Origin: a virus
Reading direction: 5' to 3' (one strand)
Virus record (IMG/VR): IMGVR_UViG_3300031601_000047
DNA length: 21,239 bases
Of the stretch, positions 15,924-16,787 are shown piece after piece. Position numbers and translations under genes: made by a program. The stretch's first letter is position 1. Each line of letters begins with the position of its first letter. The notes under the pieces were generated by a model that did not search any database, had not been told where the DNA came from, and worked only from the letters and a program-made list of their open reading frames with translations.

Positions 15924-16787
15924 TTATTCATATTTTAACAAGAATTTATTAGAGATAGTTTTGAAAGAAAATCTTTCTGGAGAATCTACTGACACCCATA
16001 CTAAACCTTCTCTTTCACTTTGAGTATTAAGAATTGATTTTCCTTCAGCCAATTTCAAAATTTCATCGATAGTTTCAGGAAGTTTAATACTTTCAAAAAC
16101 AGTAGGTACAAATCTCAAATCAAATTGTTCAGCAATTTCTAACATTTCGATTTTTGATAAATATTCATATTTATCAATATCAAAAATATTAAAAAGTCTA
16201 AATTCTTGATCTTTTATTTTATATTTATTTTTTTGAATACCTTCTCCGATGATTTCTCCTTGAAGAGCAATATTTCTTCCTAAATTTTTCATTTTAGAAA
16301 TCAAATCACTTTCCTTTGCAAGTCTCCATTGAGTAGTGTCACCTTCAGCTAATTCAAGATTTCTTGAACAGATACCAAAATTTTTGATTGATGTACATGA
16401 CGACCATCAAGTTTTTCAGGCAAAATATCTAAATTTTCTCATTTCTTCATATTCATCAGCGAAGTTTTGAATTCTTTCTTCGTCTGTTTTCTGAATGAAA
16501 CTTGGAAATTGCCCAATTACTTTACCTGTCAATTCTGGAGGAATAGGTGGTTCATATTTTACAATTTTAAGAAAGTTGGTAACATCTTGTCCTTCGATAA
16601 CTGGCACACCGACAGGTAATATAGAAGTTGGAACAACCAAACCTTGTGATACTTGTCCACGAAGTTTAATAGTTCTTAGTCTGAAACCTTCGGTTCCGTC
16701 AGACATCATTTTATAAGATGATTTTCTAAGGAATTCAAATTCTTCCCGAATAGGAAGTAAAGAGTCAATTTCAAAGTAAACAATCAA
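15924..16787 (-). pseudogene. Rnl2-family ATP-dependent RNA ligase whose reading frame is interrupted (possibly by assembly indels)
   Basis: ORF 15924..16304 carries ligase motifs III (ALQGEIIGEGIQKN), IV (EGLVWVS) and V (SFKTISNKF). These match T4 Rnl2 (FGEFAGPGIQKN / EGYVLK / AIKCKNSKF). Motif I (LPEKLDGRH) is encoded in the +1 frame across 16370-16440. That stretch lies between the two same-frame ORFs 16416..16787 and 15924..16304, which are separated by two in-frame TGA codons. Confidence 0.6.

What the first reader, a model, noticed from the sequence alone, without database searches (positions are those of the whole stretch)
15924..16787. Rnl2-type RNA ligase split into three frame segments over 70 nt, with catalytic motif I (EKLDG) stranded in the +1 frame
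Motifs III, IV and V are clear in ORF 15924..16304. The 16416..16787 ORF is in the same frame but is separated from it by two in-frame TGA codons. The lysine-adenylation motif I, together with a plausible linker (ENLDILPEKLDGRHVHQSKILVSVQEILN), is readable only in the +1 frame precisely across that interval. Both frame junctions fall in A4-5/T3-4 runs. There are three possible explanations. The gene may be intact and the assembly may carry two compensating homopolymer indels. It may be a recent pseudogene. Less likely, it may be programmed recoding. Together with two HD phosphoesterases, a possible NTase and a tRNA-like remnant, the ligase suggests an RNA or tRNA repair/counter-defence toolkit.
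Basis: partly seen in the sequence, partly recalled or inferred. Interest (0 to 1): 0.55.

Follow-up and report, generated by a model that had tools for sequence, protein, structure and literature searches.

The report
Recently broken phage RNA ligase pseudogene
This is a real but dead copy of a well-known nick-sealing RNA ligase gene in an uncultivated large phage: it has lost its start and its catalytic lysine motif is out of frame, so it is an ordinary recent pseudogene rather than an assembly error or programmed recoding.

Summary
On the minus strand (16805..15924) lies an RNA ligase gene. Its motif I (EKLDG, 16417..16403) is readable only in the +1 frame, between two in-frame TGA codons.

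It is not Rnl2-type. It belongs to the Rnl5 family (DraRnl/NgrRnl; TIGR02306; PF21189 OB domain + PF09414), with 45% identity to Naegleria NgrRnl.

DNA alignment to intact 333-aa orthologues (81-85% aa identity) shows about five lesions:
- a loss of about 118 nt that removes the RBS, the ATG and codons 1-37;
- four small indels (-2, -1, -7 and +1 nt) within about 45 nt around motif I. They sum to -9 nt, which is why the two flanking ORFs share a frame.

Only the +1 lesion lies in a homopolymer run. The same 1001 bp, with every lesion, occurs in three other contigs from three sources (JGI, ENA, Logan), so assembly error is excluded.

TGA is a true stop elsewhere in the window. The "intact" 312-aa JGI protein is therefore a code-4 gene-calling artefact.

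Substitutions private to this lineage are as depleted in nonsynonymous changes as those in intact orthologues, so inactivation was recent.

Programmed recoding is very unlikely: there are no slippery sites, the lesions are not conserved, and there is no start codon.

The "RNA repair toolkit" idea has weak support. Interest is low.

The parts
15924..16805 (-). Whole remnant of the Rnl5-family RNA ligase gene, from the codon equivalent to Val38 of the orthologues to the TAA stop.
   Evidence: phmmer to NgrRnl 5cot, E 1.5e-63, chain residues 45-337. Pfam PF21189 + PF09414. DNA alignment to L004/L007/L008.
16805..16818 (-). Junction of the 5' deletion (A10 run plus TGAG). About 118-123 nt are missing relative to the orthologues: the RBS, the ATG and codons 1-37 of the OB domain.
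   Evidence: Anchor-to-anchor distance is 44 nt in the window versus 162 nt (L008) and 167 nt (L004). Alignment. The missing segment is found nowhere else in the window.
16419..16805 (-). Frame-0 segment: the C-terminal two-thirds of the PHA02142 OB domain plus the linker, ending ...MRKFRYFA.
   Evidence: PF21189, E 1.5e-19, profile 42-92/92. Colinear with the orthologues.
16403..16418 (-). Motif I zone. First in-frame TGA at 16418-16416. EKLDG codons at 16417-16403 in the +1 frame, with the catalytic Lys codon AAA at 16414-16412. Second in-frame TGA at 16409-16407. Bounded by a 2-nt loss (16419/16420) and a 1-nt loss (16402/16403).
   Evidence: E-K-x-D-G is invariant in the family alignment.
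16377..16402 (-). Second compensated pair. A 7-nt loss, one copy of a TGTAC-containing direct repeat present in the orthologues, near 16392/16393. A +1 T in the run 16377-16380. Frame 0 reads SSCTSIKNF where the orthologues read ASCTMYFNQKF. NQKF is left in the third frame.
15924..16376 (-). Frame-0 remainder of the nucleotidyltransferase domain: GICSRNLEL, motif III ALQGEIIG (16268-16233), IIIa RLFNIFDID (16199-16173), IV EREGLVWV (16016-15990), V FKTISNKF (15971-15927), then TAA.
   Evidence: PF09414. Alignments. Coordinates.
15890..15921 (.). 14-bp hairpin flanked by A/T runs immediately after the ligase stop codon (terminator-like).
16838..16920 (+). Conserved non-coding element directly upstream of the ligase. 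It opens with a tRNA 5'-part-like sequence (GGCGGAGTAGCTCAGCGGCAGAAC ... TTCGAATCC). It is present in all four lineages, intact or broken.
   Evidence: Alignment A1, with long invariant stretches. No tRNA call. No Rfam hit. No convincing consensus fold. Single copy in the window.
17386..17682 (-). 98-aa ORF matching only the N-terminal part of homing-endonuclease families, so a likely decayed homing endonuclease gene. It lies where relatives carry a block of other genes.
   Evidence: phrog_5104, E 2.7e-9, profile 1-99/228; phrog_12131 'homing endonuclease', E 1.7e-4, profile 1-59/313. Absent from related loci. Synteny.

Best explanation
[quoted passage not shown] It sits in the genome of an uncultivated, very AT-rich, probably large phage.

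In intact relatives the 333-aa enzyme would be adenylylated on the motif I lysine (EKLDG). It would then seal 3'-OH/5'-PO4 nicks whose 3'-OH strand is RNA.

In this lineage the gene cannot make that enzyme, for two reasons:
- A deletion of about 118 nt removed the ribosome-binding site, the start codon and the first 37 codons of the OB domain. What is left is out of frame with any ATG.
- Four small indels (-2, -1, -7, +1) within about 45 nt put the catalytic lysine motif out of frame, between two TGA stops.

The indels sum to -9 nt. That is why the flanking ORFs share a frame and the gene looks 'almost intact'.

Shown: the lesions, their reproducibility, the intact orthologues, standard TGA usage, and the selection signature.

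Inferred:
- The 7-nt loss arose by slippage between a direct repeat.
- The large deletion arose between A-rich runs.
- Inactivation happened in a locus that is being remodelled by homing endonucleases.
For: Family and ancestral reading:
- Family assignment.
- Intact 333-aa orthologues at 81-85% identity read ...RYFASEKLDGxSCTMYFNQKFGICSRNLEL.

Lesions:
- Base-level alignment gives the lesion list.
- The missing 5' part is nowhere else in the window.

Reproducibility:
- The 1001 bp from 15900 to 16900 are identical in L001 (JGI 3300031645), L010 (ENA ERZ27316756, 33.6-kb contig) and L011 (Logan SRR8862237).
- L001 and L010 differ from the window elsewhere, by 1 SNP, and by 2 SNPs plus 2 indels.

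Genetic code:
- TGA ends 6 of 26 ORFs, several in 4-nt start/stop overlaps with the next ORF. Trp is TGG 52 times.
- The 804-aa gene and the intact orthologous ligases have no in-frame TGA.

Timing:
- Window-branch dN/dS is 0.09-0.13, against 0.08-0.23 for intact lineages.
- Private substitutions are 23 nonsynonymous to 30 synonymous. This matches the intact lineages and is far from the ~3.8:1 expected without selection.
- There are no stops or indels in the other 279 codons.

Functional consequence (literature): NgrRnl Lys170 in KLDG is essential. Removing the N domain reduces nick sealing to 4% (PMC4408790).

Locus instability:
- A relative has the ligase split by a GIY-YIG homing endonuclease gene.
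- The window carries a homing-endonuclease fragment 600 nt upstream and lacks a gene block that relatives have.
Against: - About five indel events, with essentially no relaxation of selection visible in the substitutions, is indel-rich for simple neutral decay. Four of the events cluster in about 45 nt around the active-site motif. This hints at one complex mutational event or at selection for loss. I could not distinguish these.
- The three confirming contigs may come from related samples or read sets. Sample metadata were not available.
- No read-level data were inspected.
- The net multiple of three (-9) is compatible with chance (about 1 in 3). It is also what a compensated allele would show.
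Confidence: 0.88

Rival explanations
1. Assembly or sequencing artefact: the gene is intact in the phage and the contig carries compensating indel errors.
For: One lesion (+1 T at 16377-16380, after an A5 run) is of the homopolymer type. The small indels sum to a multiple of three.
Against: - The other lesions are -118, -2, -1 and -7 nt, and none is in a homopolymer.
- The identical 1001 bp occur in contigs built by three different pipelines under three accessions. Two of those contigs differ from the window elsewhere.
- No protein more than 85% identical with an intact motif I was listed among the best hits from 5.8 billion clusters.
Confidence: 0.03
2. Programmed recoding: ribosomes shift +1 at GCC-TGA, read EKLDG, then shift -1 at GGT to resume frame 0. 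This would yield an active ligase.
For: - The first shift site is a sense codon followed by a stop, as in prfB-type +1 frameshifting (established knowledge).
- The out-of-frame stretch is only 15 nt.
- The rest of the gene is pristine.
Against: - Neither site is slippery. tRNA-Ala cannot re-pair from GCC to CCU. TTGATGGTCG is not an X XXY YYZ heptamer. No Shine-Dalgarno-like stimulator is upstream (sequence).
- Two opposite shifts 15 nt apart have no precedent known to me.
- All four other lineages are unbroken at these positions, so the arrangement is not conserved.
- The gene has no RBS or start codon and lacks 37 N-terminal codons of a domain needed for adenylylation.
Confidence: 0.02
3. 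Alternative genetic code: TGA is read as Trp (code 4), as in the JGI gene call P0001. This gives a continuous 312-aa protein with FAWKTWWSSCT in place of motif I.
For: JGI's pipeline called exactly this ORF on the 2.3-kb contig. Some phages do recode stop codons (general knowledge).
Against: - TGA terminates 6 of 26 window ORFs, several in 4-nt start/stop overlaps with the next ORF. Making TGA sense merges no other gene pair.
- Conserved Trp positions use TGG. The orthologous ligases and the 804-aa gene contain no in-frame TGA.
- The code-4 ORF runs through the conserved tRNA-like non-coding element.
- It replaces the invariant E-K-x-D-G with KTWW.
- No suppressor tRNA was found.
Confidence: 0.02
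4. Selected or targeted inactivation. The lesions are not neutral decay. One possibility is a scar of nuclease cleavage (homing endonuclease or CRISPR) at the conserved motif I sequence followed by error-prone repair. The other is repeated loss-of-function hits favoured because the ligase became a liability, for example a trigger of a host defence. This is a sub-case of 'pseudogene' that differs in cause.
For: - Four indels lie within about 45 nt of the most conserved DNA stretch, and the start region is deleted, while 279 other codons show no relaxation.
- Homing endonuclease genes are active at this locus in relatives, and a fragment lies 600 nt away.
Against: - No cleavage site, spacer match or defence link was tested or found.
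- The GIY-YIG insertion in L002 is about 190 nt away from motif I.
- With only one broken lineage, clustering could come from a single slippage-prone event.
Confidence: 0.12

Closest known systems
[quoted passage not shown]
   Same: - Domain order: N-terminal OB domain, then NTase, with no C-terminal appendage.
- 45% identity to NgrRnl over residues 45-337.
- All NTase motifs are recognisable at the DNA level.
- Homologues are common in phages: 347 phage records (PMC4408790).
   Different: This copy lacks the start codon and the first 37 codons. Motif I is out of frame between two stops. It is a remnant, not a functional member.
   Same: It shares the PF09414 nucleotidyltransferase fold and the KxDG lysine-adenylylation chemistry. 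Both families seal nicks with an RNA 3'-OH strand (PMC4408790).
   Different: Rnl2 has a signature C-terminal domain and no N-terminal OB module. Here the protein ends about 10 residues after motif V and begins with the PHA02142 OB domain.
Phage genes split by free-standing homing endonuclease genes (from my own knowledge, e.g. T-even phage genes split by mob/seg insertions)
   Same: In the relative L002/L003 the same ligase is cut into an OB ORF (117 aa) and an NTase ORF (232 aa), with a 306-aa GIY-YIG endonuclease gene between them.
   Different: The window copy has no inserted endonuclease. It is broken by deletions and frameshifts. Only a truncated endonuclease-like ORF lies upstream.
Programmed +1 frameshifting at a stop codon (prfB type)
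   Same: A sense codon followed by an in-frame UGA, with the continuation in the +1 frame.
   Different: - No slippery P-site codon and no upstream Shine-Dalgarno stimulator.
- It would need a second, opposite shift 15 nt later.
- It is not conserved in orthologues.

Membership tests
Rnl5 (DraRnl/NgrRnl) RNA ligase | C-terminal nucleotidyltransferase domain with motifs I, III, IIIa, IV and V | tested here: met
Motifs align to NgrRnl and to 8 family members. Motif I is present in the DNA but out of frame.
Rnl5 (DraRnl/NgrRnl) RNA ligase | Signature N-terminal (OB) domain | tested here: inconclusive
The first ~37 residues are deleted in the window. Intact orthologues have the full domain.
Rnl5 (DraRnl/NgrRnl) RNA ligase | No C-terminal appendage after the NTase domain | tested here: met
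   The alignment runs to residue 337 of the 340-aa NgrRnl. The stop codon falls at the family-typical ...FLLKYE end.
Rnl5 (DraRnl/NgrRnl) RNA ligase | Score above the curated TIGR02306 equivalog cut-off (151.15 bits) | tested here: not met
   The repaired window sequence scores 145.8 bits because of the N-terminal loss. The orthologue P0002 scores 203.4. The lineage belongs to the family. This copy is a truncated remnant.
Rnl5 (DraRnl/NgrRnl) RNA ligase | A translatable ORF encoding the catalytic lysine (functional membership) | tested here: not met
   No start codon or RBS. Two in-frame TGA codons. The Lys-containing motif is in the +1 frame.
Rnl5 (DraRnl/NgrRnl) RNA ligase | ATP-dependent sealing of 3'-OH(RNA)/5'-PO4 nicks via ligase-AMP | not testable with these tools
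   This is a biochemical property. It is known for NgrRnl and DraRnl (PMC4408790, PMC5397189).
Rnl2 (T4 Rnl2 / REL1) | Signature C-terminal domain following the NTase domain, and no N-terminal OB module | tested here: not met
   The protein ends right after motif V and starts with the PHA02142 OB domain. All 9 PDB sequences matched at E <= 0.01 are Naegleria NgrRnl variants, and no Rnl2 entry reached that threshold.
Programmed ribosomal frameshift site | A slippery sequence allowing tRNA re-pairing, and conservation of the shift site in orthologues | tested here: not met
   GCC-UGA and GAU-GGU-CGU are not slippery. The orthologues are in one frame.
Stop-codon-recoded (code 4) phage gene | In-frame TGA at conserved Trp positions across many genes, and TGA not used as a terminator | tested here: not met
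   TGA ends 6 of 26 ORFs. Trp is TGG 52 times. No other gene is rescued by making TGA sense.
tRNA gene (for the upstream 'tRNA-like remnant') | A complete cloverleaf detectable by ARAGORN or the Rfam tRNA model | tested here: not met
   No call in the window or in 6 related loci. No Rfam hit to the tRNA model even at E <= 10.

The most novel reading that the evidence does not exclude
The lesions are not neutral decay. They would be the footprint of selected or nuclease-targeted knockout of a phage RNA ligase. Four indels are focused on the active-site lysine codons and the start region is deleted, in a gene otherwise still under full purifying selection. The locus is invaded by homing endonucleases in relatives. 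That would make this a natural example of a large phage discarding its Rnl5 ligase under pressure, for example to escape a host system that recognises the ligase or its DNA.
Probability: 0.1. Interest if true: 0.5.

Novelty: new member of a known kind. Interest (0 to 1): 0.18.

Why it matters
The main value is as a clean negative. What looked like possible recoding or an assembly error is a straightforward recent pseudogene of a well-characterised ligase family.

Practical lessons:
- A public 'intact' protein (P0001, 312 aa) is a code-4 gene-calling artefact on a short contig. It should not be used as evidence of an intact gene or of TGA recoding.
- In-frame flanking ORFs can hide several compensating indels.
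- The physiological role of Rnl5 ligases in phages is unknown, and this lineage shows the gene is dispensable, at least in the short term. In relatives the gene is a target of homing endonuclease insertion.

Tried and rejected
- Code 4 or other recoding: ORF statistics under TGA-, TAG- or TAA-sense and stop-codon usage show the standard code.
- Lesion signature in public collections: exact searches in IMG/VR and JGI metagenome contigs gave 0 hits. These collections evidently do not hold the contigs. The contigs were found by exact-protein look-up instead.
- Close relatives in IMG/VR: the search for related loci with P0002 found nothing.
- Relocated N-terminal exon or split gene within the window: no match for the missing 37 codons at protein or DNA level.
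- Group I intron or other Rfam family in the window and L002: none at gathering threshold. At E <= 0.5 there was only noise, plus weak manA-RNA hits elsewhere.
- tRNA gene upstream of the ligase: not detected, and there is no convincing conserved fold with four sequences.
- Sample metadata via literature search on the accession numbers: nothing found.
- Asymmetry of selection between the OB and NTase halves after the break: none.

Full report
**1. What is in the sequence**

The feature is on the minus strand. Translating 16850..15900 in three frames shows one frame ('frame 0') that reads ...VHTIGELIVYFEIDS...EEMRKFRYFA * KT * WSSCTSIKNFGICSRNLEL...FKTISNKFLLKYE*. The two stops are TGA codons at 16418-16416 and 16409-16407. 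The +1 frame reads EKLDG at 16417-16403, and the Lys codon is AAA at 16414-16412. The core observation is therefore correct.

**2. Which ligase it is**

- Pfam finds the PHA02142 OB-fold domain (PF21189) in the upstream piece and RNA_ligase (PF09414) in the downstream piece.
The E-value is 1.5e-63 over chain residues 45-337 of 340, at about 45% identity.
- NCBIfam gives TIGR02306 (RNA_lig_DRB0094). The intact orthologue P0002 scores 203.4.

NgrRnl and DraRnl define the Rnl5 family. This family has an N-terminal domain plus an NTase domain and no C-terminal appendage. Lys170 in KLDG is essential. Deleting the N domain leaves 4% of nick sealing (PMC4408790). The gene is therefore Rnl5-type, not Rnl2-type. 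Homologues are common in phages, with 347 phage records.

**3. What is broken**

The protein search found intact 333-aa orthologues at 81-85% identity (P0002-P0006). They read MRKLASIRKIGNLQPIKNADRIELAIVDGWKVVVNNGVHTIGEL...MRKFRYFASEKLDGASCTMYFNQKFGICSRNLEL. I fetched their DNA (L004-L009) and aligned it with the window. Anchor distances and coordinates give the following lesions.

- (a) The window lacks about 118-123 nt between the conserved upstream element and codon 38. The anchor distance is 44 nt, against 162 nt and 167 nt in the orthologues. The RBS, the ATG and codons 1-37 are gone. The junction is the A10 run plus TGAG at 16818-16805. What follows is not in frame with any ATG. The missing piece is nowhere else in the window.
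- (b) GCTTCTGAA has become GCCTGAA, a 2-nt loss at 16419/16420.
- (c) GGT-GCT-TCA has become GGT-CG-TCA, a 1-nt loss at 16402/16403.
- (d) One copy of a TGTAC-containing direct repeat (TCATGTACTATGTACTTC in L008) is lost, 7 nt, near 16392/16393.
- (e) AAAAATTT has become AAAAATTTT, a 1-nt gain at 16377-16380.

Lesions b to e sum to -9: 43 nt in the window against 52 nt in the orthologues. This explains why the flanks share a frame.

Frame 0 agrees with the orthologues up to RYFA and again from SSCT. Only 15 nt are stranded in the +1 frame, not 70. NQKF is stranded in the third frame between lesions d and e. Only lesion e lies in a homopolymer run.

**4. Real sequence or artefact**

Exact-protein look-ups found the same locus in three other contigs:
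- JGI 3300031645 (L001, 2.3 kb);
- ENA ERZ27316756 k141_910919 (L010/L012, 33.6 kb);
- Logan SRR8862237 (L011, 5.2 kb).

The 1001 bp from 15900 to 16900 are identical in all three. L001 differs from the window by one SNP elsewhere. L010 differs by two SNPs, a 7-nt indel and a 1-nt indel. Three pipelines therefore agree, and most lesions are not of the homopolymer type. Assembly error is excluded. I could not obtain sample metadata, so the independence of the underlying samples is not proven.

**5. The code-4 trap**

The best database hit, P0001 (99% identity, 312 aa), looks intact only because the JGI gene caller used TGA = Trp. Its sequence reads ...KKKWVHTIGEL... and ...RYFAWKTWWSSCT..., and it runs through the upstream non-coding element.

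In the window, TGA ends 6 of 26 ORFs, several in 4-nt start/stop overlaps with the next ORF. Trp is encoded by TGG 52 times. The 804-aa gene and the orthologous ligases have no in-frame TGA. Making TGA sense rescues no other gene. No suppressor tRNA was found. The code is standard.

**6. Age of the break**

I took 279 alignable codons outside the lesions and compared the window with L004, L008 and the split gene of L002.
- Nei-Gojobori branch estimates give dN/dS of 0.09-0.13 on the window branch. The intact branches give 0.08-0.23.
- Parsimony counts of private changes give N:S of 12:19 with four taxa and 23:30 with three taxa. These match the intact lineages (0.44-0.83). Without selection the expected ratio is about 3.8:1 from the site counts.
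- There is no further stop or indel in the 279 codons.

The gene was under normal purifying selection for essentially its whole private history, so inactivation is recent. About five indels against so little substitutional relaxation, with four of them within about 45 nt, is more than simple neutral decay predicts. A single complex event, or selection or targeting, remains possible. I rate that possibility about 0.1.

**7. Programmed recoding**

A functional product would need several things at once:
- a +1 shift at GCC-UGA, which has no slippery codon and no SD-like stimulator;
- then a -1 shift at GAU-GGU-CGU, which is not a slippery heptamer, 15 nt later;
- tolerance of the d/e substitutions;
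- initiation without a start codon, and lacking 37 residues of a domain required for adenylylation.

None of this is conserved in the four other lineages. I rate recoding at about 0.02.

**8. Context**

The window is 20-32% GC. Most genes are on the minus strand. The neighbouring 804-aa MVP-shoulder-like protein is 52% identical to proteins of 462-735-kb uncultured phages LR756500, LR756501 and LR756503.

The locus is unstable in this clade:
- In L002/L003 the ligase is split into an OB ORF (117 aa) and an NTase ORF (232 aa) by a 306-aa GIY-YIG homing endonuclease gene.
- In the window, a block of genes present in relatives (DUF4326 and neighbours) is absent. In its place lies a 98-aa ORF that matches only the N-terminal part of homing-endonuclease families.

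The 'repair toolkit' idea is weak. There is one HD-domain protein above the Pfam cut-off (8299..8865). A second (9398..10021) is below the cut-off but matches a PHROG phosphohydrolase family. There are also a GGACT protein and a split NADAR gene. No kinase or phosphatase end-healing enzyme and no NTase were seen in the 26 ORFs I scanned with Pfam. Not every ORF in the window was scanned.

The 'tRNA-like remnant' is a strongly conserved non-coding element upstream of the ligase in every lineage. It is not a detectable tRNA. Its function is unknown.

**9. Verdict**

This is a real, recently inactivated, multiply lesioned pseudogene of a known ligase family (confidence about 0.88). It is ordinary in kind. 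Interest is low (0.18).

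Noticed in passing
window 16838-16920 (+); L004 ~5905-6003, L008 ~1893-1990, L002 ~8555-8652 (minus strand of those loci): An ~85-nt non-coding element lies directly upstream of the ligase. It opens with a tRNA 5'-part-like sequence (GGCGGAGTAGCTCAG..GG.AGAAC) and contains TTCGAATCC. 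It is followed by a nearly invariant AT-rich stretch (..ATACAAAAGTA.TATATTATTTTAAATAAAAAAAGTTT). It is better conserved across the four lineages than synonymous sites of the adjacent gene. It is not called as a tRNA, has no Rfam hit, shows no clear consensus fold and is single-copy in the window. It could be a promoter or 5'-UTR of the ligase, or a small RNA.
   Followed up: partly
L002 8689-10699 (= L003 4340-6350): In a related 70-kb contig the orthologous ligase is split into an OB-domain ORF (117 aa) and an NTase ORF (232 aa) by a 306-aa GIY-YIG homing endonuclease gene. Each half has its own divergent end and start, which suggests a gene split by a free-standing endonuclease. No group I intron was detected by Rfam.
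   Followed up: partly
window 20561-20295 and 19531-19355 (-), insert 19532-20294: The NADAR-domain gene is interrupted exactly at residue 89 of the 148-aa orthologue by about 763 bp. The insert carries two small ORFs: 19892..20236 (114 aa, weak Zn-ribbon-like hits) and 19604..19873 (89 aa). It could be an insertion or intron-like element, or a second disrupted gene in this phage.
   Followed up: partly
window 17386-17682 (-) and 17712-17966 (-): The 98-aa ORF matches only the N-terminal part of homing-endonuclease PHROGs, so it looks like a decayed homing endonuclease gene. The adjacent 84-aa ORF is the first 79 residues (95% identity) of a gene that is 155 aa in L002 and L004. The DUF4326/115/146/267/62-aa gene block of L002 (only partly represented in the other related loci) is missing here.
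   Followed up: partly
window 11796-12086 (-) within the ORF-free gap 11676-12541; L002 16177-16498 (+) in the orthologous gap 15749-16955: Both the window and the relative give sub-threshold matches to manA RNA (RF01745): 24.6 and 19.9 bits, against a gathering score of 55.2. The matches fall in the same ~0.9-1.2-kb region, where no ORF of 80 aa or more (window) and no called gene (L002) is found. A structured non-coding RNA may lie there.
   Followed up: no
P0001 / L001 781-1719: The public JGI protein for this locus was called with TGA = Trp. It is an artefactual 312-aa read-through of the pseudogene and of the upstream non-coding element.
   Followed up: yes
window 13385-15799 (-): The 804-aa protein has an MVP-shoulder (major vault protein-like) domain. 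It is 90% identical to the L002 orthologue and 52% identical to proteins of 462-735-kb uncultured phages (LR756500, LR756501, LR756503). This suggests the contig comes from a very large phage.
   Followed up: partly
window 5361-6393: A second ~1-kb stretch has no ORF of 80 aa or more. Gene callers place only 44-68-aa ORFs there in L010. It was not examined.
   Followed up: no
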